Source: an uncultured delta proteobacterium (GTDB taxonomy: Bacteria; Myxococcota; Myxococcia; Myxococcales; Myxococcaceae). Taken from it: DNA of 64,000 nt. The notes beneath the pieces were generated by a model that was not told where the DNA came from, made no database searches, and worked only from the letters and a program-made list of their open reading frames with translations. Where the stretch lies: contig CAVSWU010000003.1 in the NCBI GenBank assembly GCA_963731795.1, positions 966,216 to 1,030,215 on the forward strand, read 5' to 3'. A program made the position numbers and the translations under genes. Shown here one piece after another: positions 25,820 through 53,785 of this stretch; the stretch's first letter is position 1; each line of letters starts with the position of its first letter.

Positions 25820-26651
25820 ATGCGTCGCTGGTCCCTGGCCCTGCTCGTCACCCTCGCCTCTCCTGCCCTCGCCCAGGCTCCCGAGCCGGCCCAGGCTCCG
25901 CCGGCCGCCCCGGCTCCCGAGGCCAAGCCCGAGGCGAAGCCCCCGGAGAAGAAGACTCCTGCCGCCGCGGAGTCCCAGAAGACCCCCGAGGCGACTGGTC
26001 CAGCAGCCAAGGCTTCCTCCCCTGCTCCCTCCGAGGCCAGGCCAGCCCCGGCCGCTGAGGCGCCTGCCACGAAGAAGGCGGCTCCGGCCGCTGAGGCGCC
26101 TGCCACGAAGCATGAGGCCGCCGCTCCGAGCCCTGCTCCGGCGGCTCCCAAGCCGCAGACCGCCGCTCCGAGCCCTGCTCCGGCCGCTCCGAAGCCTCAG
26201 GCTGCCGCCCCGAGCCCCGCTCCGGCCGCCACGCCGGGAGCATCAGGTGAACTCGACGAGGAGGGAGCCAGGCGCCAGCGGGTGAAATCGGAGGCCCGGT
26301 TCATCCTCGAGAACCTCCTGCTTGGGGACGCGCGCCGAGCCACGAGCGAGGTGGCCTACCCGTTCCAACTCGAGGACAAGAAGTACGGCACTCCCGAGGA
26401 GCTTGTGGCCGCCTGGGTGAAGCAGACTCCGCGTGAAGCGCACGGACCTCATCACCCTCTACGACATCGAGGTCCTCTCGCTGGCGGAGATGGAGAAGAA
26501 GTACGGCAAGCCGCCGGCGCGGCTCGGGCTCGGCAACCTGAAGGACGCGGACGTCTACGCGGCCGTGGGCAACCTCTCCGGGCACGCGGCGGTGCTGCTC
26601 TTCCGCGCCCCGAAGGACGGCCCAGCGAAGGCGTTCGCGTACACGGACTGA
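25820..26651 (+). pseudogene. secreted Pro/Ala/Lys-rich repeat protein with a conserved C-terminal domain, one frameshift
   Basis: Signal peptide '[20 protein letters not shown]' followed by [11 protein letters not shown] and [13 protein letters not shown] repeats. The frame changes near 26430 into the ORF ending 'GKPPARLGLGNLKDADVYAAVGNLSGHAAVLLFRAPKDGPAKAFAYTD*'. Confidence 0.5.
26041..26230 (+). repeat. in-frame tandem DNA repeats (42 bp x2; 48 bp x2.5) encoding [11 protein letters not shown] and [13 protein letters not shown] units
   Basis: Near-identical units are visible directly in the nucleotide sequence 26041-26230. Confidence 0.6.
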
Positions 26652-26711
26652 GGCCAGCAGTTTCACCCAGCACTGCGTGACTCAAGTCGCCGTTCTTCTG
26701 ACTCCAGAGGT

Positions 26712-26737
26712 GGCGGCTTCGATTCCCGCCGCCTCCA
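26712..26737. other. tRNA 3'-end-like fragment (T-arm plus acceptor half): possible att-site remnant
   Basis: 'GCGGC-TTCGATT-CCCGC-CGCCTCCA' has a canonical TTCGATT T-loop with 4 of 5 T-stem pairs (position 53 is C, not G). No matching 5' half or anticodon arm lies upstream. It sits ~90 bp from the integrase stub. Confidence 0.2.
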
Positions 26738-26827
26738 TCCCGAGAAGCCCAGCAATCTCAACGGGTTGCGGGGTTTTTCTTTGTCCTCGTTTTCATCATG
26801 TGCCCTCAGTGTGCCCCTCTGGCGTCT

Positions 26828-27053
26828 CTAGCCCAGAGCGGCGCGCGGCTGGGGGACGGGCCGATCCAACTCCTGCACCGCGCTCTCCCGCGCCTCGGGC
26901 GACAGGTGCGCGTACCTCATGGTCATTTCGATGGTCGCGTGACCCATCAACTCCTGGATGACCTTGAGAGCAACGCCCCGCATCGCGAGGTGGCTGCCGC
27001 AGGTGTGCCTAGGTCGTGCCAGCCGGTGGAACCCTCCGGGCAGCTGACTCCTG
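26828..27053 (-). pseudogene. tyrosine recombinase/integrase C-terminal remnant (~70 aa, catalytic Arg replaced by Gly)
   Basis: The minus-strand translation reads '...GWHDLGHTCGSHLAMRGVALKVIQELMGHATIEMTMRYAHLSPEARESAVQELDRPVPQPRAALG*'. The HxxR box is degenerate (HDLG) and the catalytic Tyr region is present. There is no upstream ORF and it is absent from the ORF track (no Met). Confidence 0.55.
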
Positions 27054-27293
27054 CCCTACGCAGCGCCCACAGGAACGGGTGCTGAAAGCCAGTTGCCGCC
27101 CGATATCGTGACGGAAGCGGACATCATGCGACAAACGCTCTAGCGTCAGTGCGCCACGAGCCCCGTAGCGGCACAGCCCCCGGCTTGGACACGAGGCAGT
27201 GTGGCCGAACGTTCAGAACGCCCTAGTGGCCTGCATGATCATCCCTGGAGCGTTCACGCTCCGCCTCGTACCGTGCTAAGAAAGCAGCACGTT

Positions 27294-29192: not shown

Positions 29193-29588
29193 GCCGCCTC
29201 AAGCGTGTGCGGAGCCGAAGCCGGAAGAGGCGAGTGTGCTGACTGAAGCGGCGGCGAGAGCGGAGCCATAGGAGCCGTCTGGAAATAACATTTCCAGTTC
29301 GACTGTTGTCAGAGCATGGATGGGGAAAGACGGACCTCCTGCCGGGTAAGTGGGTTTCCGGGCAGTACGCTCTGGCCGTCTGAGCCGCACCCGGGCGTGA
29401 AGCAACCCTGGAGCACAGGGAACGAGGCCCCCCTGAGGAGGAGGCCTGAGCAACAGAACCGTGTTCTGACCTGTCTTCTTCAGGCTCCCGGCCTTGGCGC
29501 GAATGTCGACGCGATGCAAGCGATCCGAGCCCCCCGTGCATCTCCCACACTTCTGCCTACCCAGGGACACGTTGCTGGGCTGTACTTT

Positions 29589-31142
29589 TCATCGCTGATC
29601 GCCTGGGCCGGAGGTGGGCTGGCGCTCAGGCGGAACGATCGGCACGTAGCACGCGCCCTGGTACACGTGGCCGCTGAGTGCCTCGCACCTCTCGCGATCC
29701 AACTTCACCCAACACCCTCCATTGAGGGCAACCAACTGCTTGTGAGGACACCGTCCCTTCGCATCGGGCCGCATCTGCCCCGGCAAGGGCTCGGGGAGCG
29801 GGTCCTCGGCTACCACCTCTCGCGAGGACTCGGGGGCTCCCTCCTCAGAGGCGATCGACGCGGCATCGCCGAGCCCCGCCGTGCCCGCGTCTGGCCGGTC
29901 CTTATCCGCAGCTTCTCTCCGAGCAAAAGAGGGGCTCTCCACGAAATGCCGGGCAACGGACCACCCCGCCCACGTGGCCAGCGCCAGGCCTGCAGCGGCT
30001 GTCGCAAGCCAGAGCCGCCGAGCCCATACCTGCGCTCGGGGCCTGACGCCTCGCGCGGAGACTCTCGCTCCAGCGGGCTCCTCGCTAACCTGTACCTCCC
30101 CCTCGGCCGCGTCCCGAGCGCGGTCGCTCACCTCGGCGGCGGGCACTTCCTCACGAGGCGGCACCGAAGGCCGTGGCAGTTCCTCCGCCACACTCGGCGG
30201 AGTGCTCACCGGCGCGAGGCGCTCCCCGGCCTGATCCAGCAGTTCGGCCAGCTCCGCCGCGCTGCCACGCTCCTCGGGGCGCACCGACAGCATGCGCACA
30301 ATCAACTCCCTCAGCGGCGCAGCCACGCGTGCCTCGTCCCGCAGCCCGGGCGGACACACCACGCTCTCCACCTGCCAGTTCCCTTCCTCATCCTGGCTGG
30401 GCTCGCCAAGCTCCGGGTACTCACCGCTCACCAGCCGGCACGCCGTCACTCCCAGCGCGTACACATCATCCGCGGGGCTGGCGCTGTAGCGCGCCCTGGG
30501 CTCTCGCAGGCTCCGCAGTTCGAGCAGGGCCGCCTCCGGCGAGCGGTAGGCCAGTGTCCCGGGTACCACCGTGGGCGGCGTGAGGGTCGCCGCCTCCGCG
30601 TAGGAGCCCGCACCGAAGTCCGTGAGGATCGCTCGACCGTCCGTGCGCCGCACCAGGATGTTGCCGCCCTTCACGTCCCGGTGCAGGCCCCCTTGCGCAT
30701 GCAGCGCCTCCAGCGCCCGCGCGAGCTGGGCCAGCAGCCTCAGCACCTGCTCACAGCTCGGAGCTTGCCGCAGGGCCCACTCGTACAGCGGCACTCCCTC
30801 CACCCACTGCATCACCAGATACGGATGACGGGTGCCTCCGGGGTGCTGCCACTCTCCCGAGTCCACCAGGCGCGGCACACTCGGATGCTCCACTCGCGAC
30901 AGCAGCGTCGCCTCACGCGCGAACCGCGGATCTCCCGGGTACATGGCCACCTTGAGCGCCACCGGGCCGGCCTGCTCCTGCCCCACTCGCTCCGCCTGAT
31001 ACACCGCTCCCTGGATGCCCTGCCCCGCCCACGCCACCACCCGCCACGGCCCCACCTCCATCCCTGGACAGAGCAAGGCCGGATGCGGCGCGGGGGCGGG
31101 AGGGCTCTTCATGCGGGGCCTCGCGGAAGAAGGGCTGCTCAC
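29589..31142 (-). CDS. serine/threonine protein kinase with TM segment and Cys-rich C-terminal extracytoplasmic domain
   Basis: Hanks motifs 'ALKV', 'HRDVKGGNIL', 'DFG' and 'GTLAYRSPE', a mid TM helix 'LWLATAAAGLALATWAGW', and a C-terminal 6-Cys region. Start is either 31142 or the Met at 31061. Confidence 0.8.
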   Translation of the reverse strand: MSSPSSARPRMKSPPAPAPHPALLCPGMEVGPWRVVAWAGQGIQGAVYQAERVGQEQAGPVALKVAMYPGDPRFAREATLLSRVEHPSVPRLVDSGEWQHPGGTRHPYLVMQWVEGVPLYEWALRQAPSCEQVLRLLAQLARALEALHAQGGLHRDVKGGNILVRRTDGRAILTDFGAGSYAEAATLTPPTVVPGTLAYRSPEAALLELRSLREPRARYSASPADDVYALGVTACRLVSGEYPELGEPSQDEEGNWQVESVVCPPGLRDEARVAAPLRELIVRMLSVRPEERGSAAELAELLDQAGERLAPVSTPPSVAEELPRPSVPPREEVPAAEVSDRARDAAEGEVQVSEEPAGARVSARGVRPRAQVWARRLWLATAAAGLALATWAGWSVARHFVESPSFARREAADKDRPDAGTAGLGDAASIASEEGAPESSREVVAEDPLPEPLPGQMRPDAKGRCPHKQLVALNGGCWVKLDRERCEALSGHVYQGACYVPIVPPERQPTSGPGDQR

Positions 31143-34802: not shown

Positions 34803-35357
34803 TTACCGCTCCCCCCAGAGGAAGGACAGATCCAGCTCCAGGGCCTCGAACGGCTCGGCGCGCACGCGAGCCAGCCCCTGATGCGTGACGAGCAGCACGT
34901 ACCGAGCCCCCTCCCACCGGAACACCTCCAGCGTGCGCGCCTCCGGATCCATCAACCAGACGTGCCGCACGCCCTCGCGCCCACAGACGGGAAGCTTGAC
35001 GCCTCGATCGAGCGCGGCGGTGGAGGGGGAGAGCACCTCGCACACCCAGTCGGGCGCCAGGGTGAAAGCCGCGGTGCGCGGGGGCCGGGGCATGCGCTCC
35101 CGGCGCCAGCCCGCAAGGTCGGGCACCAGGACGTCCTCCCCGAAGTGCAGCTCGGGCTCATAAAGGATGATCCACCCGCCAGGTCCGCCACGCCCCTCAT
35201 CGAACGGGCCGGACAACCCGCCCCCCAGGCGAGAAGCCGCTACCGTATGCGGTGCCGCTGGCCGGGGACTGACGTGCAGCTCCCCAGCGATGAGCTCTCC
35301 TACGACGTACTCGGGCAGTGCCTCCAGATCCGCGTAGGTGGCCGGCTTCCTTCCCAT
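34803..35357 (-). CDS. Uma2 family endonuclease (DUF820, restriction-endonuclease-like fold)
   Basis: 'YEPELHFGEDVLVPDLAGW...APDWVCEVLSPST...' matches PD-(D/E)xK Uma2 proteins. It is a paralogue of 56771..57334. Confidence 0.7.
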   Translation of the reverse strand: MGRKPATYADLEALPEYVVGELIAGELHVSPRPAAPHTVAASRLGGGLSGPFDEGRGGPGGWIILYEPELHFGEDVLVPDLAGWRRERMPRPPRTAAFTLAPDWVCEVLSPSTAALDRGVKLPVCGREGVRHVWLMDPEARTLEVFRWEGARYVLLVTHQGLARVRAEPFEALELDLSFLWGER

Positions 35358-35540
35358 GACTTCCTCATTTTCCTCGACGCCCATCCCTGTTTCCATAGGA
35401 GAGGCATACCAACCCGGTCTGACGTAGAAGGTCGGGCTTCAGAGCCCTTCCTCTCAGGTTGTCCCTGACGATCGCTGGATGCAAGAGCCTTCGGTCCATG
35501 ATCGCTCGGTCACCCGAGCCAGCCGCGATAAACAACGTCC

Positions 35541-39091: not shown

Positions 39092-39682
39092 ATGGCGAAC
39101 AAGCACATGGGGATGTACCTGGTCATCTCGCTGCTCCTGGCGTGCGACGCGACGCACGACGTGGGTGAGCAGCCCCGAGACGAGACGGTGGCGGATGCGG
39201 GCACCGAGCCGGACGCGGGCGTCCAGGATCCGGCGCCCCAAGCTGATGGGGGGACCCAGCCGTCGTGCACCCAGCACACCGACTGCAATACGAGCACCGA
39301 GGTCTGCGACTTCGGCGTCTGCCGCCTGGGCTGTGGCCCCAACTATCCCGGCTGGAGCTGCGCGCCGGGCGAGTTCTGCGACGACACCGTCTACATCTGC
39401 CGGCCCAAGTGCGATGCGGGCTGCCCCAGCGGCACCACGTGCGATCCGCTGACCCTCTTCTGCCACCCACCGGCCTGCTCCGCGCAGAACCTCTGCCCGC
39501 CCCGGTACGGCTGCTCCGCTGGCACCTGCGTTCCGATCGGGCAGGAGTGCAGCGTCAATCTGCCGTGCCTCCAGGGGCAGCTCTGTGTCCAGGGGTTCTG
39601 CCAGCTCCCCTGCGGCCCGAACTACCCGGGCAACGTCTGCCCCAGTGGACAGCAGTGCCAGCAGAGCGCGACGTGCGGGTAG
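39092..39682 (+). CDS. cysteine-rich lipoprotein (Myxococcus cysteine-rich repeat type)
   Basis: Lipobox 'LLLAC' and ~30 Cys in repeated 'C..G..C...YPG..C' units. Confidence 0.65.
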   Translation: MANKHMGMYLVISLLLACDATHDVGEQPRDETVADAGTEPDAGVQDPAPQADGGTQPSCTQHTDCNTSTEVCDFGVCRLGCGPNYPGWSCAPGEFCDDTVYICRPKCDAGCPSGTTCDPLTLFCHPPACSAQNLCPPRYGCSAGTCVPIGQECSVNLPCLQGQLCVQGFCQLPCGPNYPGNVCPSGQQCQQSATCG

Positions 39683-39835
39683 ACGAGGGGGGTGGGCTCA
39701 AGCATTGACCCCAGGCGCCAAAGAATTGACCGGGCGTGCCATGAGCAGGCGCGGGGGCGAGCGAGCAGGCGCTGAGCGCGCTGCAACAACGTGAAGACAT
39801 TGCAATTCAGCATCTCTTCCGCGAGGAAATCCCCC

Positions 39836-41788
39836 ATGCCTCATTCCTCTCCCTCGGCCCAGGGAGACCTCACTCCGCAGAAGGCGGGTGGCGCTCTCCG
39901 GCTGTTCCGCTCCTGGCTTCTGAAGCGGCTCGATGCCCTGCTCTCGGAGCCCCTGCGCATGGCCCCGGCCTCGGAGCTCACCCGCGCCCGGGTGCTGGCC
40001 GGCACCACCACCCTCTTCCTCGTGTTCAACGTGCTGTATCTCCTCGTCCTCGAGGCAACGCCCCACCCCTCGCTCTGGATCGCCCCTGGGCTCGGCGCCC
40101 TCGTGGGCTTTGTGGGCGCACTGCTCCTGCTGCGGAGGGCCACCTCCCCCATCCGCCCGGCGATGCTCCTGTGCATGGCCATCATGGTGGGGAGCGTGGG
40201 CACCATGCTCACCTACCGGAACGCGTACTCCATCACCCACGCCTCGACCGTGCTGATCCCCGCGCTCGCGGTGTACCTGATGGGACCCCGCTTGGGCCTG
40301 GTCGCAGCGCTCCTCCAGATCCTGCTCATGGGGCTTGTCCTCCTGGTCGTCTATGTCCACCTCGGTATCCGCGCGCCCTCTTCCAGCGCTGAGATCATCT
40401 GGACGCTGTACTTCGCCGCGGCCGCCGCCATCATCGGCGTCTGGTTGCTGGGCGCGCTGCACAGCACCGCACGCGACGCGGCCCAGGCGACCCTGGAGCG
40501 AACCCTGAAGGAGCTGCACGACAGCGAGCACAAGCTCAGCAGCCTCTTCGAGAACACCGACGACCTGGCCTGCTCGCTCGATACCGAAGGGCGCATCCTC
40601 ATCGCCAACACAGCCTTGAAGCAGGCCTTCGCCAGACGCTTCGGCCAGGAGCCCGCGGTAGGCCAGCCCCTCCTGGCCGGCGCCGAGCCCGCGATCCAGG
40701 AGTTGTGGGCCAGGCGGTTCCATCAGGTGCTCCAGGGCCGGCGCTTGAAGTTCGAGTTCGAGTACATGCTGGCGGATCGCCGCGTCGTGATGGAGACCTC
40801 CATGGGCCCCATCCGCGACGAGAACGGGCAACCCGCGGGCATGGTCCTCTTCGCCCGCGACATCACGGCTCGCAAGGAGGCCGAGACCCGGATGGGCGAG
40901 ATGCACCGCACGCTGGTGGATGTGTCGCGGCAGGCGGGCATGGCGGAGATCGCCACCGGCGTGCTCCACAACGTGGGCAACGCCCTGAACAGCGTCAACA
41001 TCTCGGCCTCCCTCATCGCCGAGGGGCTGCGCAAGCAGCGAGTGTCAGGCCTGGCCCGGGCCGCCACGCTGCTCCAGGAGCACTCCGCCGACCTGGCTTC
41101 CTTCCTCACCACCGATCCGCGAGGCCAGCAGCTCCCGGCCTATCTGCAGACCCTCTCAAAGGGGCAGCGCGAGGAGCAGGAGGCGCTCCTCTCTGAGGCG
41201 AGCTCTCTCACCTCGGGCATCGAGCACATCAAGTCCATCATCAGCACGCAGCAGAAGCATGCCCGGACTGTCGGCGCGGTGGAGTCGCTCTCGGTGCCGC
41301 AGCTCATCGACGAGGCGATGCGCCTGCACGCCATCTCCTTCGAGCGCTTGAACATCGCCGTCGAGCGCGACTACGGGGATGTGCCACCCATCGTCGCGGA
41401 TCGGCACAAGCTGCTGCAGATCCTCCTCAACCTGATGACCAATGCGCGCCATGCGCTGGTGAGCGGTGATCAGCAGGAGAAGCGCCTGCGGATCCGCGTC
41501 CGGCTCTCCCCGGATGGCGGGCAGCTGCTCGTCGAGGTCTCCGACAATGGCATGGGTATCGCGCCGGAGCATCTGCCGCGCATCTTCACGCAGGGCTTCA
41601 CGACCAAGAAAGAGGGGCACGGGTTCGGCCTGCACATCAGCGCCCTGGCCGCCATGGAGATGAAGGGTCGGCTCACCTGCACGAGTCAGGGGCTCGGGCA
41701 GGGTGCCACCTTCACGCTCGAGCTGCCGCTCGCGGACAGCCCGGCCAGCAGCCATGGTGGTGCTGCACGCGAGGACGCTCCCGCGTAG
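39836..41788 (+). CDS. sensor histidine kinase (polytopic N-terminal membrane domain, PAS, HisKA, HATPase_c)
   Basis: 5-6 TM helices, PAS ('[23 protein letters not shown]'), H-box '[15 protein letters not shown]', N and G boxes ('[11 protein letters not shown]', 'DNGMGI', 'GHGFGL'). The start is at the Met following a GAGGAAA RBS. Confidence 0.8.
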
Positions 41789-41837: not shown

Positions 41838-42566
41838 TCACCAGCTCAGCTCCGCGGGGGTCAGCTTGCGGGTGTTGTGCTCGATGCTGACAATGCGCCC
41901 ATCCGCGACGCGGATGATGCGGTCCGCCATCTTCGCGATGGGGGCGTTGTGGGTGATGACCGCGGTGGTGGTGCCCAGCTCGGTGTTGATGCGCGCCAGG
42001 GTGTCGAGGACGAGCTTGCCGGTGGCGTAGTCCAGCGCGCCCGTGGGCTCGTCGCACAGGAGCAGATCCGGGCGCTTGGCCACCGCGCGCGCGATGGCGA
42101 TGCGCTGCTGCTCGCCGCCGGAGAGCTGCGCGGGGAAGTGATCCATCCTCGCGCCGAGCCCTACCCTCTCCAGCGCATCCTCCGGCTTCAGGGGGTGCTC
42201 GGCGATCTCCGTCACCAGCGCGACGTTCTCCCGGGCGGTGAGGCTGGGGATGAGGTTGTAGAACTGGAAGACGAAGCCGACGTGTTCGCGGCGGTAGCGG
42301 GTGAGCTCGCGCTCATCGGCGCGGGCCAGATCATGGTCGCGGTAGGAGATCTCTCCGGCCGTCGGCACGTCGAGCCCCCCGATGATGTTGAGGAGCGTGG
42401 ACTTTCCGCTGCCCGACGGCCCGAGCAGGACGACGAACTCGCCCTCATACAAGTCCAGGTCCACTCCCCGCAGGGCGTGCACCTCCACCTCTCCCATGCG
42501 GTAGATCTTGGTGAGGCCGCGCGCCACGAGCACGGCACGCTGGGGCTCCGGGAGCGAAGTCGCCAT
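41838..42566 (-). CDS. ABC transporter ATP-binding protein (LolD/MacB-type), no adjacent permease
   Basis: Walker A 'GPSGSGKST', signature '[14 protein letters not shown]', Walker B '[12 protein letters not shown]', H-loop 'ITHN'. Confidence 0.8.
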
Positions 42567-42677
42567 GGACAGGCATGGTTTGGCATCCTCCCCCACCCTG
42601 GCATCGGCCCAGAGGGCAGGTGCTGGTGCTCTACCCGCCCTGCTCCCTTCCTAGGGCGGGAGTGCGCTCTGGCCGGG

Positions 42678-42710
42678 GGGTGACTGGAGCCACCACCCGG
42701 GTGACTGGAG
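42678..42710 (+). promoter_or_regulatory. tandem 12-bp direct repeats GGGTGACTGGAG (x2, 21-bp periodicity): candidate enhancer-binding-protein site
   Basis: Exact repeats ~100-130 bp upstream of the sigma54 promoter at 42807, the usual enhancer distance. Confidence 0.3.
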
Positions 42711-42806
42711 TCTCGCGGCGCCCTGCCTCGGAAGGCGGCCCGCGTGGTGGTGACTCGAATCTCTCCGGCCTCGGTTCCCAGGGGTTCTGCCCCAGGGAGC
42801 GAGCAC

Positions 42807-42822
42807 TGGCACACCTCCTGCT
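42807..42822 (+). promoter_or_regulatory. sigma54 promoter TGGCAC-N6-TGCT (shared extended motif TGGCACACCTCCTGCTCT)
   Basis: Perfect -24 TGGCAC and a -12 GC at the canonical spacing, ~65 nt upstream of ATG 42887, which has an AGGAG RBS. Confidence 0.45.
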
Positions 42823-42886
42823 CTGAGGTGTCTCCGTCACTCACCAACGCTCTCACCCCACGGAGAGCCACCCCCAGGAGCCCGCC

Positions 42887-44119
42887 ATGACGACCGCCAT
42901 CGCCAACCCCCCCGCCCCCCGCCTCACCCGCGTGAACTCCGAGCCCCTGCCGAACGTCGCCCGGCCCGAGCTGCAGCGCACCAACACCGCTCCCGCGGCG
43001 TTGAGCTCGCCCGCGGCCCAGGCGAAGCCCACTTCGACGAGCCTCCCCTCGAAGGTGGCGGACGTCTTCTCCAAGGCGGGCTCCAAGGTGAGCGGCTGGC
43101 ACGGCAATGCCGTCTCCCAGGCCACCTCCGACGCTCAGGCCTCTGGCGGAAGCGTGCTGAGCAAGCTGAAGGCGGGCGCGGGCCTGGGCAGTGGAATCCA
43201 GGGCATCGTGTCCAACAGCCAGGGACTGGCCAACGCCATCAAGAACCATGAGGGCGGCCAGGCCATCGCCGCCAACGCACTCGGGCTGACCCGCGGCGTG
43301 CTGGGCACGGCGAAGGGCGCCCTCGACACGGCCGCCGCCATCGAGTCCACCCTGGGGCTGCGCAAGGTGGGCCAGGCCGCCAAGGACGCCATCGGTGTGC
43401 CGGGCAAGCTGGGCCAGGCCATCACCAGCGCTGTCTCCGAGGCGGTGCACAACGGCAAGCCGCTGCGCGACGTGGACGTCCTGTCCTCTATCGGCAAGTC
43501 CCAGGGCACGTGGAGCAGCGTCAAGAACTCCGTCCAGATGGCGGTCGCCGACAAGCTCCGCTCCGCCCACTTCGAGAACGCGGCCAACAAGATCGAGAAC
43601 CACGTCTCCGAGAAGGGCCGCAAGGCCGCGCAGGAGCTCGCCGCCGGTGAGAAGGGCGTCGGCAAGGCCATCACCGAGGCGGGTGGCACGGCCGCGAGCA
43701 CGGCGGGCAAGGCCGCTCACGGTATCGAGGAGGCGGTGAAGGGAGGCAAGGCGGCGGACTCGGCCATCCACGCGGCCAAGGGCGCCGAGGAGGCCCTCAA
43801 GGTGGGCGCCAAGGGCGCGGGGACCGCGGCGCGGCTGGCGGGCCGCTTCGCGCCGGGCCTCAACATCGCCATGGCGGGCGTGGACACCGCCATCGCCGCG
43901 CGCACCCTGAGCGATCCCAAGGCGAGCGTCGCCGCCAAGGTGACGTCCAGCATCACCGCCGCGGGCTCCGTCGTCGCCGCCACCAACATCCCGATCGTCT
44001 CCCAGGTGGGCGCGGCGGTGTCGGCGGGCTCCTCCATCGCCGGCGCGGTGGTGGAGAACGCCGGGAAGATCAAGGACGGCTTCAAGAAGCTCGGCAACAA
44101 GCTCAAGAGCTTCTTCTAG
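42887..44119 (+). CDS. Ala/Gly/Lys-rich, Cys-free hypothetical protein with a C-terminal ~55-aa hydrophobic hairpin
   Basis: 410 aa with a strong RBS and no signal peptide. It has no Cys or Trp-rich core, and a C-terminal hydrophobic stretch ('GVDTAIAARTLSDPKASVAAKVTSSITAAGSVVAATNIPIVSQVGAAVSAGSSIAGAVV'). Confidence 0.6.
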   Translation: MTTAIANPPAPRLTRVNSEPLPNVARPELQRTNTAPAALSSPAAQAKPTSTSLPSKVADVFSKAGSKVSGWHGNAVSQATSDAQASGGSVLSKLKAGAGLGSGIQGIVSNSQGLANAIKNHEGGQAIAANALGLTRGVLGTAKGALDTAAAIESTLGLRKVGQAAKDAIGVPGKLGQAITSAVSEAVHNGKPLRDVDVLSSIGKSQGTWSSVKNSVQMAVADKLRSAHFENAANKIENHVSEKGRKAAQELAAGEKGVGKAITEAGGTAASTAGKAAHGIEEAVKGGKAADSAIHAAKGAEEALKVGAKGAGTAARLAGRFAPGLNIAMAGVDTAIAARTLSDPKASVAAKVTSSITAAGSVVAATNIPIVSQVGAAVSAGSSIAGAVVENAGKIKDGFKKLGNKLKSFF

Positions 44120-44155
44120 CCCCGGACCGCTCCACCCCTTCCCGAGGACTCCACC

Positions 44156-45173
44156 ATGAACCCCATCGAAGTGACCGAGCTGGGCGAGCAGACAGGACTT
44201 CCCGAGGTGCAGGCACCGTCGCTGGAGGGGCTCTCCGTCACCCTCCCCGCCCCCGAGGGCTTCACCTCGGCTCAGGTCCAGCAGCGCTTCCTGGAGCTGG
44301 CCCGCGCCCACGCCACCGAGCGCTACCGCGGTCCCTGCGGAGCGGATCTCCTCGGGAGACGAGGTGCTGCTGGACATCGCGGGCTACAGCCATGGCCGCC
44401 TCATCCCGTTCAGCATCCGCACGGGCGTGTGGCTCGCTCTGGAGCCCGAGCCGATGCTGCCCGGCCTGTACGAGGCGCTCGTCGACCGCAAGCCCAACGA
44501 GGGCCTCGTGGTGGACATCACCCTGCCCCCGGAGTACCCCCTGCCGTCGCTGCGCGGCTGCCCCGCGCGCTTCCTGGTCCACATCCAGGCCGCGCGCGAG
44601 GTGACGTACCCATCGCTGGAGAGCCCGGAGTTCCTCCAGGCTTTCGGCCGAGGCCAGACGGTGGAGGAGGCCACGCGCAGCGTCGTCGCTCAGATGGTGG
44701 ACGAGGCCGCTCAGGTCCTCCTGCTCCAGGGCCAGCAGCGGGTGCTGGACGAGGTGGCCTCTCGCACCCAGGTGCGGATCCCCTCCGAGCTCATCGACGA
44801 GGAGATCCGCCGGTGCTGGAGCGAGAGCGAGGGCCGCTCCGTCCGGGAGCTGAACTTCTCCGAGCAGGAGCAGCGGGAGTCGCTCGACACCTGGCTGAAG
44901 GATGACGCGACCCGGCGCGAGGTGGAGCGGCGGCTGCGGCTGGCCCTGGCCCTGGGCGCCATCTGCAAGCGGGAGGGACTCACCCTCACCCCGGAGCGGG
45001 TGGAGAAGCTGCTCCAGGAGCGCGCCTCGGCCGCCGGGCTGACGCTGGAGGAGGTGACGGAGTCCCTGCGCGCCGAGCCACAGCACCTGGCGCGCATCGA
45101 CCAGGTGGCGTGGCACCTCCTGGTGGTCGACTACGTCATGAGCCGGGCGCAGCTCCGCTTCGAGCCGTCCTGA
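44156..45173 (+). pseudogene. trigger-factor-like protein (FKBP-type PPIase-like plus C-terminal helical domain), one frameshift
   Basis: Frame change at ~44335 between 'ARAHATERY' and 'SGDEVLLDIAGYSHGRLIPFS'. The downstream domain architecture resembles the Tig PPIase and C-terminal arms. Length minus 1 gives 339 codons. Confidence 0.5.
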
Positions 45174-45287
45174 GCCCCGCCGGGTGGTGACGGCCGTCAC
45201 CAGTTCAGCGATGGCCGTCACCAGGCCGAGGCCCCCCGTCACCCGCCCGTGCCTCTCGAGCCCCCGCGAGAGGACGGGCAAACACCT

Positions 45288-45303
45288 TGGCATACCTCCT
45301 GCT
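45288..45303 (+). promoter_or_regulatory. sigma54 promoter TGGCAT-N6-TGCT (TGGCATACCTCCTGCTCT, 17/18 identical to the site at 42807)
   Basis: Lies in the 170-bp gap before ATG 45343, ~40 nt upstream. Confidence 0.4.
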
Positions 45304-45342
45304 CTACCCCTGGCTGCCCCCCTTCCTTCGGAGCTCTCCATC

Positions 45343-46281
45343 ATGGCCCTCTCCCCCCTCTCCAAGTCCTCGTTCTCCAGCCCCTCCACCCTGGCCATCC
45401 CGAGCGCCGAGCCGATCTCCGCCCAGTCACGATCCTTGCCGGGCCGCATGGATTCGCAGCAGAGCAGTCCCCTGCGGAAGCTCCTTATGAGCGACGGCTT
45501 CGACTCGCCGATGGGCGCGACGAAGGCGGGCGGTGTGGAGGCGGCGGTGCGGATGCTCACGCAGGTGGCCGACCTGCTGGCCAGGTCCGCGCGCATGCTG
45601 GGCAGCGAGCTCGGTACGGGCAGCCAGCCCGTGTCTGGCGCGAGCCCTGTGGGGAAGAGCGCGGTGCCGGAGCTGGGCGGCGCGCAGGGCGGCGTGCCGG
45701 ACCTGGGCACCCCTCAGAGCGCCCCGGCGAAGGGCGGGCCGAAGGGCGAGCGGACGATGACCTTCACCAACGATGGCAACTCGCCCATGACCATTCAGTT
45801 CACGCCGAACGCCGGTGAGAAGGCGATCGAGCCTCGGACCCTGAAGCCGGGCGAGACCCAGACCGTGGAGTTCCCCGACGGCTGGTCCGGCAACTTCCGC
45901 AGCACGGCCGGGGACGGGAAGGCGGCCACGCTCGGCGAGGTCAAGTTCAACGGAGGCGGGAACCAGACCTACTACGACGTGAGCTACATCGAGGGAAACA
46001 ACGCGGCGATGACCATCCAGCCGGAGAACGGCGGCCGCAAGTCCGGCACGCTCGACAACCTGCTGGCGTCGGCCCCGGACTCCATCAAGGCGAAGGACGG
46101 CAGCGGCAACGCCTACGGCATCAAGAAGAGCACCACGTCCAACGTGCAGGATTCCTCGGTGGTGGACTACTACCGGCAGAAGGTCGGCGCCGACCAGGGC
46201 TACGTCATCCCCACCGATGACGCCAGCACGCTGGGATCGGGCGACAGCCACCTGTCCGTGCACCTGAAGAACCTGACCTGA
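45343..46281 (+). CDS. hypothetical protein with a Cys-free thaumatin-like C-terminal beta domain
   Basis: GGAGC RBS. The C-terminal 'TFTNDGNSPMTIQF...GWSGNFRS...GEVKFNGGGNQTYYDVSYIEGNNAAM' follows the thaumatin-like motif order but without the disulfide Cys. There is no obvious signal peptide. Confidence 0.5.
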   Translation: MALSPLSKSSFSSPSTLAIPSAEPISAQSRSLPGRMDSQQSSPLRKLLMSDGFDSPMGATKAGGVEAAVRMLTQVADLLARSARMLGSELGTGSQPVSGASPVGKSAVPELGGAQGGVPDLGTPQSAPAKGGPKGERTMTFTNDGNSPMTIQFTPNAGEKAIEPRTLKPGETQTVEFPDGWSGNFRSTAGDGKAATLGEVKFNGGGNQTYYDVSYIEGNNAAMTIQPENGGRKSGTLDNLLASAPDSIKAKDGSGNAYGIKKSTTSNVQDSSVVDYYRQKVGADQGYVIPTDDASTLGSGDSHLSVHLKNLT

Positions 46282-46306
46282 GAACCGGGAAGCACTCCCC
46301 GCCGCC

Positions 46307-46322
46307 TGGCCCGCCTCTTGCT
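46307..46322 (+). promoter_or_regulatory. sigma54 promoter TGGCCC-N6-TGCT (TGGCCCGCCTCTTGCTCT, 15/18 to the 42807 site)
   Basis: Lies in the 80-bp gap, ~39 nt upstream of ATG 46361. Confidence 0.35.
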
Positions 46323-46360
46323 CTAAAGAGGCGCGTACCCACCCGTAAGAGGCACTCCCC

Positions 46361-47533
46361 ATGAGCGTTCGATTGGCACAGGCGGCGATTCCCCATACCG
46401 GCGCAGCGGTTCACGCCCCCAAGGCAGAGCCGAAGCGGGAGCAGGAGAAGCCCGGAGCCAGCAAGGCGTCCTCCGGGGGGGGCTCCGCGGCGAAGTCCGT
46501 GGCCAGCGGCAAGAGCGGAGGTGCCCAGGGAGCGCGGCAGCAGGAAGGGGCGGAGAACGGAGCCCAGCTCGGGGCACACACGGGTGGGGCAGACAGCCTC
46601 GCCGACACGCACGAGCCCCAGGCCCGGAGCCGGTTCAGCGTCATCCAGGGCGAGGGAGCCCACTCCACGCCGCAGGCGCAGGAGCAGGCGGCGCGCCCGG
46701 CTCCCCGGTTGGCGACGGCGCCGGAACTCCCGCAGGAGCACAAGGCGGAGGGCCGCGAGGGTTCTGGCTCCCGACAGGAGGTGCTCGAGGGCCGCGCGAG
46801 GCTGCGTGCCGCGCTGCTGGAGCGGCTCGCCCAGGGCATGGCAGATGTCGAGGAGCGGCTGAGCCAGTTCCTGAAGGCCCCGGGCAAGCTGGGCGTCGTC
46901 AACCTGTCCCTGGTGCTCAGCGAGAGCTCCATCACGTACGAGCTGTGGCAGGAGCCGAGCACCGTCCCCGAGCGTCGGGCTCGCATGGCGCTGACGCTGG
47001 GGCTCTCCGCGGAGGTGGAGGATGCCTCGCTGCTGCGGACGCTGATGGCCGAGGTGCATGAGGCCTTCATCGCCTTCCGGGCCAGCAGCTCCGGCCGAGA
47101 GTCCCTGCAGCGGTACGAGCAGGTGCTGCGCGGCTACGAGGCGGCGAAGGTGCTGCCCGTCGTGCCCGGCCACGACACGGGCCCCATGCTGGCCGAGCTC
47201 GCGCGGGTGGGGCTCACGCACGAGGCGGACTTCTCCCGCTCGCTGCTGGTGAACCCGCTGCTCCTCGCGGTGGGGCTCACCGCCGAGGAGGGTTCAGAAA
47301 CCCAGGTGATGATCGCGGGCCTGAGCGTGGCGCAGCTCGGCACGCTCGTGGCGCAGCTGCGCCAGGTCAACCCACGGCTCACCAACCACCAGGTGTGCCG
47401 GCTCCTGCTGCGCGCCACCACCGAACCGAAGAAGACCCTCCGCAAGTGCCTGGGCCAGGCCGAGCTGGAGCGGGTGCTGGAGTCCGCGTACCAGTTGCTG
47501 CGACTCCAGGTCTTCGAGCTGTTCTTCGTCTGA
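46361..47533 (+). CDS. hypothetical protein (disordered Gly/Ser/Ala-rich N-terminus, helical C-terminal domain)
   Basis: 390-aa intact ORF with GC3-rich coding signature. It is the last gene of the co-directional cluster. Confidence 0.5.
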   Translation: MSVRLAQAAIPHTGAAVHAPKAEPKREQEKPGASKASSGGGSAAKSVASGKSGGAQGARQQEGAENGAQLGAHTGGADSLADTHEPQARSRFSVIQGEGAHSTPQAQEQAARPAPRLATAPELPQEHKAEGREGSGSRQEVLEGRARLRAALLERLAQGMADVEERLSQFLKAPGKLGVVNLSLVLSESSITYELWQEPSTVPERRARMALTLGLSAEVEDASLLRTLMAEVHEAFIAFRASSSGRESLQRYEQVLRGYEAAKVLPVVPGHDTGPMLAELARVGLTHEADFSRSLLVNPLLLAVGLTAEEGSETQVMIAGLSVAQLGTLVAQLRQVNPRLTNHQVCRLLLRATTEPKKTLRKCLGQAELERVLESAYQLLRLQVFELFFV

Positions 47534-47573
47534 GTCACGCCCACCGGAGGTGGCCCGGTGGGCGAGCGATTCC

Positions 47574-48779
47574 TCAGCTCAGCGCGGCGACGAAGTCCTT
47601 CATCCGCGCCAGGCCCTTCTGGATCACCTCGCGCGAGGTGGCGAAGCTCAGCCGCAGGTAGCCCTCCGCTCCGAAGGGGGCTCCCGGCATCACCGCCACC
47701 CGGAAGTCGTCCAGGAGGATCTCGGACAGCCGCGACGAGGTGCCCACCGGCGTCGCCCTTGTACGAGCGCTTCAGCAGGCCCTGCACGTTGGGGAACACG
47801 TAGAACGCACCCTCGGGCGTGCGGCACCGCACTCCGTCCAGCGCGTTGAGCCCCGAGACGATCAGATCCCGGCGCGCGTGGAACTCCTCCACCATCTTGC
47901 CGATGAAGTCCGTCGGCCCCTTCAGCGCCGCCAGCGCCCGCCTTCTGCGCGATGGACGAGGGGTTGGACGTCGACTGGTCCTGGATCATCTGCATGCCCG
48001 GCGATGAGCGGCTTCGGCCCCGCCGCGTACCCCAGGCGCCAGCCCGTCATCGAGTACGCCTTGCTCATCCCGTTGACCACGACCAGCCGAGGCACCAGGT
48101 CCGGCGCCACGTTGGCGATGTTCAGGAACTGGCCCGCGTAGAGCAGCTTCTCGTAGATGTCGTCGCTGACGATCAGGCAGTCGTGCCCGCGCAGCGCCGC
48201 GGCGATGCCCTCCAGCGCGGCCCGCGAGAACACGGCGCCGCGTGGGGTTGCTGGGGCTGTTGAGCATGATGGCCCGCGTGCGCGGGGTGAGCGCGCGGCG
48301 GATGGCCTCCGGATCCGGCGCGAAGCCGTTCTCCTCGCGCGTCTCCACGATGACCGGGGCGCCCGCCGGCCAGCAGCACCATGTCCGGGTAGCTCACCCA
48401 GTACGGCGAGAGGATGATCACCTCGTCGCCCTCGTTCAGCAGCGCCTGGAAGATGTTGTAGAGCGAGTGCTTGGCGCCCACGGACACCAGCACCTGATCC
48501 GGCGCGTAGGTGAGCTGGTTGTCGCGCTGGAGCTTGTCGCAGATGGCCTCGCGCAGCTCCGGGATGCCCGCCGTCGGCGTGTACTTGGTGAAGCCCGCCT
48601 TCATGGCGTCGACGGCGGCCTGCTTGATGAACTCGGGCGTGTCGAAGTCCGGCTCGCCTGCGACGAAGCCCACCACGTCCACGCCCTGCGCCGCGAGCGC
48701 CTTGGCCGGGCGTTGAGGGCCAGGGTCGGGGACGGCTTGATGGCTTTGATGCGCTGTGCCAATTGCATGCCCGGTTGCT
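47574..48779 (-). pseudogene. aspartate/aromatic aminotransferase (class I PLP-dependent), ~6 frameshifts
   Basis: Conserved blocks appear in successive frames: 'AQGVDVVGFVAGEPDFDTPEFIK', 'SPSNPTG', 'MSKAYSMTGWRLGYAAGP' (PLP Lys), 'MQMIQDQSTSNPSSIAQKA', 'MVEEFHARRDLIV...' and 'RLSFATSREVIQKGLARMKDFVAALS*'. The frame steps 2>1>0>2>1>0, consistent with repeated +1 insertions. Confidence 0.75.
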
Positions 48780-48819
48780 ACCGCGAGGACGCCCGGGCGG
48801 ACAAGCACTACGAGCTGCA

Positions 48820-50965
<2,146 letters not shown>

Positions 50966-52090: not shown

Positions 52091-52204
52091 GGGAGAGAAC
52101 CCTGGGGACAGCACGCCGCTCTCAGTATATGAGCACTGACGAAAAATCGGACACCCTGGGAGTCTCGAGGTGTCCTGAGCCGCGACACCGGCACGAGGAG
52201 CGGG

Positions 52205-53785
<1,581 letters not shown>

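What the first reader, a model, noticed from the sequence alone, without database searches (positions are those of the whole stretch)
42887..44119. Ala/Gly-rich, Cys-free 410-aa protein with a C-terminal hydrophobic helical hairpin: harpin- or pore-former-like candidate
The composition is ~45% Ala, Gly or Lys, with no Cys and no Sec signal peptide. A long uncharged hydrophobic stretch (~55 aa) near the C-terminus is followed by an amphipathic tail (KIKDGFKKLGNKLKSFF). These properties recall harpins, type III translocators and colicin-type pore-forming domains. It is the first gene behind the sigma54 promoter, and the next gene is a chaperone-like (trigger-factor-fold) protein.
Basis: inference. 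Interest (0 to 1): 0.5.

Follow-up and report, generated by a model that had tools for sequence, protein, structure and literature searches.

The report
Protein family with dedicated trigger-factor chaperone
This gene encodes an uncharacterised, very basic, alanine-rich helical protein whose near-invariant C-terminal segment is almost always encoded next to a private copy of the chaperone trigger factor that cannot bind ribosomes, which points to an undescribed chaperone-client pair rather than a recognisable toxin.

Summary
The ORF (42887-44119, 410 aa) is real. It is Cys-free and very basic (pI 10). It sits behind a phylogenetically conserved sigma54 promoter and is followed by a trigger-factor (TF) paralog that lacks the ribosome-binding domain.

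I found no sequence or fold match to harpins, colicins, type III translocators, phasins or any Pfam family.

The protein belongs to a family of about 270 clusters, in Myxococcota and a few Sericytochromatia. The family is defined by a near-invariant 70-aa C-terminal module (RFxPGxN...DP...KVTSxITAxGSxxAATNIPxVSQxGAxVS). In about 75 of 80 genomic loci, the next gene is an N-domain-less TF paralog and nothing else is conserved. Client and chaperone co-diverge (r = 0.90).

The M. xanthus copy is MXAN_6152/6153. Published work shows that MXAN_6153 does not bind ribosomes, and that its deletion mutant grew weakest under oxidative and salt stress and showed no predation defect. That work never examined the neighbouring gene.

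Best reading: a dedicated post-translational holdase for an aggregation-prone, probably membrane-directed C-terminal module. The client's own function remains unknown.

The parts
42807..42822 (+). Sigma54-type promoter element TGGCACACCTCCTGCT. GG is at 42808-9 and GC at 42820-1, which is the canonical 12-nt offset. It lies about 65 nt upstream of the ATG.
   Evidence: Sequence read. The identical or near-identical element (TTGGCACACCTCnTGCTC) is a conserved island in 10 of 12 orthologous upstream regions that are otherwise poorly conserved. Its function as a promoter is inferred, not shown.
42876..42880 (+). Shine-Dalgarno sequence AGGAG, 6 nt before the ATG.
   Evidence: Conserved as (C)AGGAG in the aligned orthologous upstream regions.
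42887..44119 (+). CDS of the 410-aa client protein. It is basic (pI 10.0, net charge +19), has 20% Ala, 12% Gly and 8% Lys, and has no Cys or Tyr.
   Evidence: A 100% identical protein, P0001, is in public assemblies.
42887..43054 (+). N-terminal Pro/Ser/Thr/Ala-rich segment of low predicted order (residues 1-56). It carries two R-x-N-S/T-x-P motifs: RVNSEP at 42929-42946 and RTNTAP at 42977-42994.
   Evidence: Alignment A1. The motif occurs twice in 26 and once in 12 of 313 family members, only in the Archangium/Hyalangium clade. No secondary structure is predicted here. Its meaning is unknown.
43055..43840 (+). Ala/Gly/Lys-rich all-helical region (residues 57-318). Homologous but weakly conserved across the family, and internally repeated in long members.
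   Evidence: AlphaFold helices H57-H319. The profile matches most family members over this region. P0147 and P0160 carry three copies.
43841..44053 (+). Family-defining C-terminal module (residues 319-389): GRFAPGLNIAMAGVDTAIAARTLSDPKASVAAKVTSSITAAGSVVAATNIPIVSQVGAAVSAGSSIAGAVV. It is predicted as helix, helix, N-I-P break, helix. The uncharged part is residues 352-389.
   Evidence: Invariant in 99 of 99 sequences: R320, F321, P323, G324, A330, D333, A358, S361, A365, N367, P369, V371, S372, Q373, G375. It is always at or near the extreme C-terminus in 270 cluster representatives. AlphaFold pLDDT is 85-87 for residues 331-360 and below 50 at 367-374.
44054..44116 (+). Lys-rich amphipathic tail ENAGKIKDGFKKLGNKLKSFF (residues 390-410).
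   Evidence: muH 0.59. About one third of the family has such a tail, sometimes as 2-6 repeats. About two thirds end right after the module (...GAFF). Aromatic C-terminal ends (FF, GW, FW, WF) are typical.
44156..45173 (+). Trigger-factor paralog without the ribosome-binding N-domain. It is acidic (pI 4.9, net charge -17). It is 338 aa when an extra C in the run at 44333-44335 is removed. As assembled it is split into the ORFs 44156.. and 44364..45173.
   Evidence: Trigger_C 1e-16 and TIGR00115 4e-29 covering TF positions 157-408. Aligns to E. coli TF 1W26 residues 112-417, E 4e-18. A short-read assembly that encodes the identical 410-aa protein calls an intact 338-aa gene. The frameshift was located against L011. 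A gene of this kind follows the client in about 75 of 80 loci.
45343..46281 (+). Clade-specific operon companion: a 312-aa Cys-free protein with no signal peptide. It has a disordered N-half and a thaumatin-like C-domain.
   Evidence: PF00314 5e-7. Syntenic in Hyalangium versicolor L081 (59% identity) and nearby on the opposite strand in Cystobacter L014 and L071. Not part of the conserved core.
46361..47533 (+). Clade-specific operon companion: a 390-aa protein of unknown function.
   Evidence: No family hit. Syntenic in L081 (63% identity) and L011 (68%). No sigma70-like promoter or intrinsic terminator was found in 42500-47900, so a four-gene operon is plausible but not shown.

Best explanation
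The gene encodes a member of an undescribed protein family, whose M. xanthus representative is MXAN_6152. Family members have a variable, basic, Ala/Gly/Lys-rich helical body and a near-invariant 70-residue C-terminal module, sometimes followed by Lys-rich amphipathic repeats. The family forms a two-gene cassette with a trigger-factor paralog that has lost the ribosome-binding domain.

Proposed mechanism:
1. The module lies at the extreme C-terminus, so it leaves the ribosome only at termination. Ribosome-tethered TF or SRP therefore cannot capture it.
2. The free, acidic TF paralog, made from the same mRNA, binds the uncharged, small-residue-rich module after translation. It keeps the basic client soluble and inactive.
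3. The chaperone then releases the client at its destination. This is most likely the cytoplasmic face of a membrane, where the helix-NIP-helix element and the amphipathic tail insert shallowly or oligomerise.
4. In this clade, expression is under a sigma54 promoter, which implies signal-dependent induction.

Shown: the family, the module, the cassette, the co-divergence and the nature of the TF paralog.
Taken from the literature: no ribosome binding, and weakest growth under stress for the mutant of the M. xanthus MXAN_6153 paralog.
Inferred: direct binding of the chaperone to the module, membrane destination, and a physiological role in envelope stress or dormancy.
For: (1) Cassette. Of 80 genome loci that encode the module, 72 have a TF-like gene immediately downstream on the same strand by tblastn. 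Three Sericytochromatia/Blackallbacteria loci (GC 50-53%) have the order client, TF paralog, client. The remaining loci are contig ends or one of two true exceptions.
(2) Clustering all flanking ORFs finds only these two genes conserved, in 68 and 67 loci.
(3) The pairing also holds when starting from the chaperone: L082 and L083.
(4) Client and chaperone distances correlate with r = 0.90 (Mantel p = 0.001, 59 pairs), and intergenic gaps are mostly under 60 nt. Genomes carry 2-4 such cassettes.
(5) The C-terminal module is far more conserved than the rest of the protein: 15 invariant residues in 99 sequences whose bodies are 30-50% identical.
(6) The chaperone aligns to E. coli TF residues 112-417 only.
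(7) The charges are complementary: client pI 10.0, chaperone pI 4.9.
(8) Two thirds of the family end about 17 residues after the VSQ motif, which makes post-translational handling obligatory.
[quoted passage not shown] They help GAPDH refolding but, unlike canonical TF, do not suppress aggregation of denatured GAPDH, which fits specialised chaperones. The MXAN_6153 deletion mutant grows weakest after H2O2 and in 1% NaCl, and the gene is induced by heat, oxidative and salt stress.
(10) PMC13599543 mentions an 'uncharacterized functional gene' between cyp1 and tig3. The same arrangement of cyclophilin, client and TF-like gene is seen in L083.
Against: - No physical interaction has been shown, and I could not run a complex prediction.
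- The published MBP pull-down with MXAN_6153 lists mostly single-peptide hits and no obvious dominant client. I could not map its 'hypothetical protein' accessions to MXAN_6152.
- In Hyalangium versicolor (L081) the orthologous client has lost the C-terminal module, yet the TF paralog is intact. The chaperone may therefore serve other clients, for example the downstream operon genes.
- One locus (L080) has the client without a TF-like gene.
- The module is only marginally hydrophobic and both AlphaFold models are poor. Membrane insertion is therefore a guess. The module could equally be an oligomerisation or aggregation core.
- Adjacent genes are inherited together, so the mirror-tree correlation alone does not prove binding.
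Confidence: 0.5

Rival explanations
1. Exported membrane-permeabilising toxin or effector, which is the first reader's idea (colicin-, harpin- or translocator-like). The C-terminal hairpin would form pores in a target membrane. The TF paralog would act as an export chaperone and/or a cytoplasmic safety catch.
For: - The family is Cys-poor (0.1% Cys; 251 of 313 members have none), has no signal peptide, and is Lys-rich in a 70% GC genome.
- The uncharged, small-residue-rich helix-turn-helix lies near the C-terminus with conserved polar residues (S, T, N, Q), as would be expected for pore lining or oligomerisation.
- Cassettes are multi-copy, with diversified N-terminal bodies.
- In this clade the operon also encodes a Cys-free thaumatin-like protein with no signal peptide.
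Against: - No sequence or fold similarity to any pore-former family.
- No secretion system, immunity, lysis or receptor-binding genes are conserved near 80 loci, and no secretion-system gene turned up among the roughly 30 window ORFs scanned with Pfam.
- No viral or mobile-element association.
- The architecture is the reverse of polymorphic toxins: here the conserved part is C-terminal and the variable part is a non-enzymatic helical repeat.
- M. xanthus mutants of all three TF paralogs show normal predation (PMC11559001).
Confidence: 0.15
2. Non-membrane stress or dormancy protein, resembling a LEA protein, a phasin, a lipid-body coat or a scaffold. The helical Ala/Gly/Lys body would coat or protect a cellular structure. 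The C-terminal module would be a self-association (possibly amyloid-like) core whose assembly the TF paralog controls.
For: - The composition (A, G, K, T, S-rich; no Cys; few aromatics) and the repetitive amphipathic helices match this class.
- The module is rich in beta-branched and small residues and is too weakly hydrophobic for a classical transmembrane helix.
- Mutants of the paired chaperones grow weakest under stress or have reduced sporulation (PMC11559001).
- A sigma54 promoter drives this gene. Such promoters are common for developmental and stress genes in myxobacteria (background knowledge).
Against: - No hit to LEA_4, phasin, PspA/IM30 or perilipin models. Only sporadic sub-threshold hits were seen (Apolipoprotein in 2 of 118 members, BAR_3 in 7 of 118).
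- The Lys-rich amphipathic tails ending in aromatic residues look like membrane-targeting sequences.
- Nothing links the family to lipid bodies or granules.
Confidence: 0.2
3. There is no specific partnership. The TF paralogs would be general, subfunctionalised chaperones, as the published interpretation holds, and the upstream gene would merely share an operon for co-regulation.
For: - The paralogs refold a generic substrate (GAPDH), and pull-downs recover many unrelated proteins (PMC11559001).
- The L081 paralog is intact although its client lost the module.
Against: - The same gene pair is kept across two phyla, through repeated duplications, in otherwise unrelated neighbourhoods.
- The paralogs fail the general anti-aggregation assay that canonical TF passes.
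- The client's most conserved part is exactly the kind of segment a holdase would bind.
Confidence: 0.1

Closest known systems
MXAN_6152 / MXAN_6153 of Myxococcus xanthus DK1622, plus the 'uncharacterized gene' upstream of tig3
   Same: MXAN_6152 (Q1CZ90) is a family member with the same C-terminal module. MXAN_6153 is the paired N-domain-less TF homologue studied in PMC11559001. The gene order and orientation are the same.
   Different: - The paralogous clade shares only about 30% identity outside the module.
- MXAN_6152 lacks the Pro-rich N-terminus, the R-x-N-S-x-P motifs and the Lys-rich tail, and ends ...VGAFF.
- No sigma54 element was detected upstream.
- The published work characterises only the chaperone and never the neighbour.
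PceT/RdhT, the trigger-factor-like dedicated chaperones of reductive dehalogenases (background knowledge; mentioned in PMC3403914)
   Same: A TF paralog without the ribosome-binding domain is encoded next to its client and acts post-translationally on a hydrophobic targeting segment.
   Different: The PceT client is a cofactor-containing Tat substrate, and the bound segment is the N-terminal twin-arginine signal peptide. Here the conserved segment is C-terminal, there is no Tat motif or cofactor enzyme, and the client is a non-enzymatic helical protein.
Toxin-antitoxin-chaperone (TAC) systems: a SecB-like chaperone and the C-terminal 'chaperone addiction' segment of the antitoxin (background knowledge; reviewed in PMC4257090)
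   Same: A paralog of a general export chaperone has become the private chaperone of an operon partner. It recognises that partner through an aggregation-prone C-terminal extension.
   Different: The chaperone family differs (SecB rather than TF). The client in TAC is an antitoxin of a three-gene TA module. No toxin gene is present here.
Pore-forming colicins, Bcl-2 and the diphtheria toxin T-domain (hydrophobic helical hairpin in a helical bundle)
   Same: An uncharged, Ala-rich helix-turn-helix of about 38 residues lies near the C-terminus of an all-helical protein.
   Different: - No Pfam Colicin hit and no fold match.
- No receptor or translocation domains.
- No immunity or lysis genes.
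- The hairpin sequence is conserved almost to identity, which is unlike colicin hairpins.
Harpins and type III translocators
   Same: Gly-rich, Cys-free and without a Sec signal.
   Different: - Strongly basic (pI 10).
- No type III secretion genes among the window ORFs scanned, and none conserved in 80 related loci.
- No homology.
- The partner is a TF paralog rather than a small acidic or TPR class II chaperone.
Tail-anchored membrane proteins and amphipathic membrane-targeting sequences such as that of MinD (background knowledge)
   Same: The hydrophobic element lies within the last 20-60 residues, which forces post-translational targeting. The tail ...KLKSFF resembles Lys/Phe amphipathic membrane-targeting helices.
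   Different: The hydrophobic element is split by a conserved N-I-P, each arm is only 15-20 residues long, and hydrophobicity is below the usual transmembrane thresholds. No bacterial TF-based targeting route is known.

Membership tests
MXAN_6152-like family (defined here by the C-terminal module) | C-terminal motif RFxPGxN(I/V)...D...DP...K(V)TSxITAxGSxxAATNIPxVSQxGAxVS at or near the protein end | tested here: met
   Residues 319-389 carry all 15 invariant positions. The profile search finds 270 cluster representatives.
MXAN_6152-like family (defined here by the C-terminal module) | An N-domain-less trigger-factor paralog is encoded immediately downstream on the same strand | tested here: met
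   The gene is at 44156-45173, 36 nt after the stop codon. The same arrangement is found in about 75 of 80 loci.
Trigger factor family (the neighbouring gene) | PPIase-like and C-terminal 'arm' domains homologous to TF | tested here: met
   Trigger_C 1e-16; TIGR00115 4e-29, below the equivalog cut-off. Aligns to 1W26 residues 112-417.
Trigger factor family (the neighbouring gene) | N-terminal ribosome-binding domain with the GFRxGxxP motif | tested here: not met
   The alignment starts at TF residue 112 and there is no Trigger_N hit. The M. xanthus paralogs do not bind ribosomes (PMC11559001).
Pore-forming colicins | Colicin pore-forming domain (PF01024), a ten-helix bundle | tested here: not met
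   No Pfam hit at E <= 1 for this protein, and none among the listed families for 118 relatives. No Foldseek hit. The models are low-confidence, so the fold test is weak.
Pore-forming colicins | Immunity gene, and usually a lysis gene, adjacent | tested here: not met
   Only the TF paralog is conserved in the flanks. A small membrane-protein gene lies convergently downstream in 22 closely related Myxococcus/Corallococcus loci only.
Harpins / type III translocators | Homology to a harpin, HrpZ, HrpN, YopB or IpaB family | tested here: not met
   No hits.
Harpins / type III translocators | Genomic link to a type III secretion system and its chaperones | tested here: not met
   No secretion-system gene appeared among the roughly 30 window ORFs scanned with Pfam, and none is conserved in related loci.
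Harpins / type III translocators | Secretion, and elicitor or translocon activity | not testable with these tools
   Requires experiments.
Phasin / PspA-IM30 / LEA / apolipoprotein-like coat proteins | Match to the family profile | tested here: not met
   No hit for the window protein. Among 118 relatives only 2 have sub-threshold Apolipoprotein hits, and none of the other families is listed.
Tail-anchored / monotopic membrane proteins (a functional class) | A C-terminal segment hydrophobic enough to integrate into a bilayer | tested here: inconclusive
   The KD19 maximum is 1.46 (1.58 in the M. xanthus homologue). Simple dGapp sums are +5 to +7 kcal/mol. No dedicated TM predictor was available.
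Dedicated chaperone-client pairs (PceT-like, TAC-like; a functional class) | Specific physical binding of the chaperone paralog to a defined segment of the operon partner | not testable with these tools
   Only indirect support: conserved adjacency, co-divergence and charge complementarity.

The most novel reading that the evidence does not exclude
Ribosome-free trigger-factor paralogs may form a previously unrecognised post-translational targeting and holdase system for a family of proteins with a C-terminal membrane-insertion module. This would be a bacterial, ATP-independent counterpart of the GET/TRC pathway logic. The near-invariant RFxPGxN...ATNIPxVSQ module would serve both as a 'chaperone-addiction' handle and as the membrane-active element, switched on under stress or during development.
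Probability: 0.25. Interest if true: 0.8.

Novelty: new variant of a known kind. Interest (0 to 1): 0.55.

Why it matters
Trigger factor is the textbook ribosome-bound chaperone and is nearly always single-copy. Myxobacteria are the best-known exception, and recent papers explain their extra, N-terminally defective copies as general chaperones that have subfunctionalised.

The comparative evidence here points to a simpler, testable alternative. Each extra copy tested here is encoded with, and co-evolves with, one specific client family that those papers did not examine. If this is confirmed, three things follow:
- The published stress and sporulation phenotypes would be reassigned to the clients.
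- It would add a second example, after PceT, of TF turned into a private chaperone, this time for a C-terminal segment.
- It would open the question of what a widespread, multi-copy, Cys-free, highly basic protein family does in predatory, sporulating bacteria.

As a toxin lead, the finding is weak.

Tried and rejected
- Family libraries. Pfam, NCBIfam and PADLOC gave nothing for the 410-aa protein. A Pfam scan of 118 relatives gave only scattered sub-threshold hits.
- PDB sequence search with a 99-sequence profile. It returned only designed helical bundles at E of 0.03 or worse, which is a composition effect.
- Structure prediction. Two AlphaFold runs, on the window protein and the M. xanthus homologue, gave all-helical but low-confidence models (pLDDT 61 and 56; pTM 0.34 and 0.41).
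- Fold search. Foldseek against the PDB with both models found nothing (best E above 2). I therefore did not spend the last fold search.
- Long family members. I checked them for toxin or enzyme domains and found none, only repeats of the helical body.
- Viral contigs. No relatives.
- Rfam on the whole window. Nothing.
- Intrinsic terminators and sigma70 promoters in the operon. None.
- The sigma54 activator at 52133-53785 as cognate regulator. It is not syntenic in any related locus, so there is no support.
- Literature. There is no paper on MXAN_6152 or on the neighbours of MXAN_1178 and MXAN_1713. The pull-down table of PMC11559001 could not be mapped to the client.
- Weak 14-3-3 fold hits. 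I rejected these as noise (probability 0.14 or lower).
Full report
**Observation**

The ORF at 42887-44119 (+) exists and encodes 410 aa. It has the codon signature of a real gene in this 70% GC genome (GC3 0.94). Its ATG is preceded by AGGAG, and both the ATG and the N-terminus MTT... are conserved in orthologues.

The composition is A 20.2%, G 12.0%, S 9.8% and K 8.3%, with no Cys and no Tyr. Other genes in the window have 10.6% A, 3.0% K and 1.24% C, so the absence of Cys (P about 0.006) and the preference for Lys over Arg are real features. The protein is very basic, with pI 10.0 and net charge +19.

- A+G+K is 40.5%, not about 45%.
- The uncharged stretch is residues 352-389, which is 38 aa, not about 55.
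- That stretch is only marginally hydrophobic. The KD19 maximum is 1.46, and simple Hessa dGapp sums are +5 to +7 kcal/mol.

The Lys-rich tail is amphipathic (muH 0.59).

**Context**

A sigma54-type element, TGGCACACCTCCTGCT, lies at 42807-42822 with canonical GG/GC spacing. The same 16-18 nt form a conserved island in 10 of 12 orthologous upstream regions that otherwise align poorly. The promoter call is therefore supported by phylogenetic footprinting, though not by experiment.

The next gene starts 36 nt downstream and is a trigger factor (TF) homologue (Trigger_C 1e-16; TIGR00115 4e-29). It aligns to E. coli TF residues 112-417 only. It therefore has the linker, the PPIase-like domain and the C-terminal arms, but not the ribosome-binding domain.

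In this window the TF-like gene is broken by one extra C in the run at 44333-44335. A short-read assembly that encodes the identical 410-aa protein calls an intact 338-aa gene, and all other loci are in frame. Other genes in the window are fragmented in a similar way. The frameshift is therefore probably an assembly error.

Two further genes follow, with no terminator between them:
- a Cys-free thaumatin-like protein with no signal peptide, at 45343-46281;
- a 390-aa protein of unknown function, at 46361-47533.

These two genes are syntenic only in the closest (Hyalangium-like) relatives.

**What the protein is**

It has no hit in Pfam, NCBIfam or PADLOC and no sequence relative in the PDB. 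It does have 99 homologues by word-indexed search and 270 cluster representatives by exhaustive profile search. All that carry a name are called hypothetical, and all that carry an organism name come from Myxococcota: Archangium, Hyalangium, Cystobacter, Stigmatella, Corallococcus, Pyxidicoccus and Myxococcus.

Alignment shows a weakly conserved helical body and a near-invariant C-terminal module: G-R-F-A-P-G-L-N-I/V-x-I-A-A-x-D-T-A-x-A-x-x-T-x-x-D-P-K-A-S-x-x-x-K-V-T-S-x-I-T-A-x-G-S-I-A-A-A-T-N-I-P-I-V-S-Q-V-G-A-A-V-S. Fifteen positions are invariant in 99 sequences.

The module always lies at the C-terminal end. Two thirds of members stop about 17 residues after VSQ (for example ...VGAFF). 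One third add one to six Lys-rich amphipathic repeats that end in aromatic residues.

Across the family, Cys makes up 0.1% of residues, and no member has a signal-peptide-like N-terminus. Long members contain extra copies of the helical body, not enzymatic or toxin domains.

AlphaFold models of the window protein and of the M. xanthus homologue are all-helical but of low confidence. The module is predicted as helix (325-342), helix (348-365), a break at N367-I-P369, and helix. Foldseek against the PDB finds nothing with either model.

**The decisive result is genomic**

Among 80 loci from species-representative genomes that encode the module, 72 have the TF-like gene directly downstream on the same strand. 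When all flanking ORFs are clustered, these two genes are the only conserved ones.

Three loci from Sericytochromatia/Blackallbacteria MAGs have 50-53% GC, so they are not myxobacterial contamination. They carry the order client, TF paralog, client. Their TF paralog has Trigger_C and a partial Trigger_N but no GFRxGxxP motif.

Starting from the chaperone side gives the same pairing: L082 in Hyalangium gracile and L083 in a Myxococcus genome. Genomes carry two to four or more cassettes in unrelated neighbourhoods. Client and chaperone distances correlate with r = 0.90 (Mantel p = 0.001), and intergenic gaps are mostly below 60 nt.

True exceptions are rare. L080 has a glycosyltransferase after the client. 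L002 has no recognisable ORF downstream. In L081 the orthologous client has lost the module while the chaperone is intact.

**Link to the literature**

The M. xanthus DK1622 family member is MXAN_6152, and its partner is MXAN_6153. [quoted passage not shown] It reports the following:
- They do not co-sediment with ribosomes.
- They assist GAPDH refolding but, unlike canonical TF, do not prevent its aggregation.
- The MXAN_6153 deletion mutant grows weakest after H2O2 and in 1% NaCl, and the gene is induced by heat, oxidative and salt stress.
- The other two mutants sporulate less.
- None of the mutants is defective in predation.

Neither that paper nor its supplements mention the upstream gene. 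A 2026 follow-up notes only 'an uncharacterized functional gene' between cyp1 and tig3 (PMC13599543). That is the arrangement I see in L083: cyclophilin, client, TF-like gene. No other paper in the searchable library mentions these loci.

**Mechanism (inference)**

A segment at the very C-terminus leaves the ribosome only at termination, so it must be handled post-translationally. A TF copy that is free of the ribosome, acidic (pI 4.9) and made from the same transcript is well suited to hold the uncharged, small-residue-rich module of a very basic client.

Two observations suggest that the module is a specific binding, oligomerisation or insertion element rather than a passive lipid anchor. 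First, its conservation is extreme. Second, its invariant polar residues (S361, T366, N367, S372, Q373, S379) sit on otherwise apolar helices.

Several features favour the cytoplasmic face of a membrane as the destination:
- the Lys/Phe amphipathic tails;
- the aromatic C-terminal ends;
- the basic body;
- the absence of an export signal.

The arms of 15-20 residues around N-I-P fit a shallow or re-entrant hairpin better than two full membrane spans. None of this is shown. The weak hydrophobicity leaves room for a non-membrane self-assembly core.

**Comparison with known systems**

The pair works like PceT-PceA (a TF paralog dedicated to one neighbour) and like the SecB-like chaperone and 'chaperone addiction' segment of TAC systems. 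It differs from both in the nature of the client and in the position and type of the recognised segment.

It fails the tests I could apply for colicin, harpin, type III translocator, phasin/PspA/LEA and classical tail-anchor membership (see the membership table).

**Verdict**

The toxin-like interpretation is not supported, although it is not excluded.

I rate it a new variant of a known kind (dedicated chaperone-client pairs), with interest 0.55. The most novel reading that remains open is a TF-based post-translational targeting route for C-terminally anchored proteins, with probability about 0.25.

Noticed in passing
window 44330-44340: The trigger-factor-like gene carries a +1 frameshift, an extra C in the run at 44333-44335. 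The public annotation therefore calls only a 269-aa fragment (P0326). A short-read assembly and all orthologues encode an intact protein of about 338 aa.
   Followed up: yes
window 47134-48950 and 48947-50566 (- strand): Other housekeeping genes are also split across frames: an aspartate-aminotransferase-like gene, and the rsmD-like methyltransferase and coaD region. This suggests an indel-prone (long-read) assembly rather than true pseudogenes.
   Followed up: partly
window 42929-42946 and 42977-42994; alignment A1: The N-terminus carries two copies of L-x-R-x-N-S/T-x-P (consensus LxRSNSAP in Archangium), about 16 residues apart. The motif occurs in 38 of 313 family members, in one clade only. 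It looks like a basophilic Ser/Thr-kinase site or the R-S-x-S-x-P type of motif. Its meaning is unknown.
   Followed up: partly
window 45343-46281 and 46361-47533; L081 7273-9802: Two operon companions are conserved only in the Hyalangium-like clade. One is a Cys-free thaumatin-like protein with no signal peptide and a long disordered N-half. The other is a 390-420-aa protein with no family hit. A cytoplasmic thaumatin-like domain would be unusual.
   Followed up: partly
L081 5367-5966 (Hyalangium versicolor): The orthologue of the window protein has an internal deletion that removes the whole C-terminal module (199 aa remain, ending ...LQSVF). The sigma54 element, the TF paralog and the two downstream genes are intact.
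   Followed up: partly
L039 6127-11983; also L050 and L052 (Sericytochromatia / Blackallbacteria MAGs): The arrangement is client (585 aa, with a long acidic disordered N-region), TF paralog (433 aa), a second client (471 aa) and a secreted subtilase. GC is 50-53%. The cassette therefore exists outside Myxococcota, possibly through horizontal transfer.
   Followed up: partly
P0147, P0160 (642 aa family members): The helical body is triplicated, with a repeat of about 130 aa that contains a D-I/V-R-x-A-I/V-R motif. This shows that the body is a modular repeat.
   Followed up: no
family consensus around window residues 359-366: The consensus AGSIAAAT is identical, as far as I recall, to an 8-residue stretch of the NAC region of human alpha-synuclein (EGAGSIAAATGFV). 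The window protein itself reads AGSVVAAT. This may be a coincidence of low-complexity sequence. It is a recalled resemblance and was not tested.
   Followed up: no
PMC11559001, Table S5: The MXAN_6153 pull-down lists several single-peptide 'hypothetical proteins', for example WP_216609491.1 at 11% coverage. I could not tell whether any of them is the re-annotated MXAN_6152.
   Followed up: partly
window 52133-53785: A PocR-sensor / sigma54-activator / HTH_8 enhancer-binding protein lies 8 kb downstream of the sigma54-driven operon. It is not syntenic in related loci, so it is not evidently the cognate regulator.
   Followed up: yes
window ~26000-30000 and 34803-35438: A lower-GC stretch (58-63%) encodes an AAA_15/AAA_21 (OLD/AbiEii-like) ATPase at 27201-29192. 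A Uma2-family endonuclease lies nearby. This may be a small defence or mobile island.
   Followed up: no
window 39092-39682: A 196-aa Cys-rich protein has a lipoprotein-like N-terminus (...LLLAC) and no Pfam hit. It lies just upstream of the PAS histidine kinase at 39791-41788. A 52%-identical kinase sits directly upstream of the client in L010.
   Followed up: no
L048 11651-12052 and 21 other Myxococcus/Corallococcus loci: A small membrane-protein gene of about 133 aa lies convergent to the TF paralog. It is seen only in this closely related clade, so it probably reflects synteny rather than a third component of the cassette.
   Followed up: no
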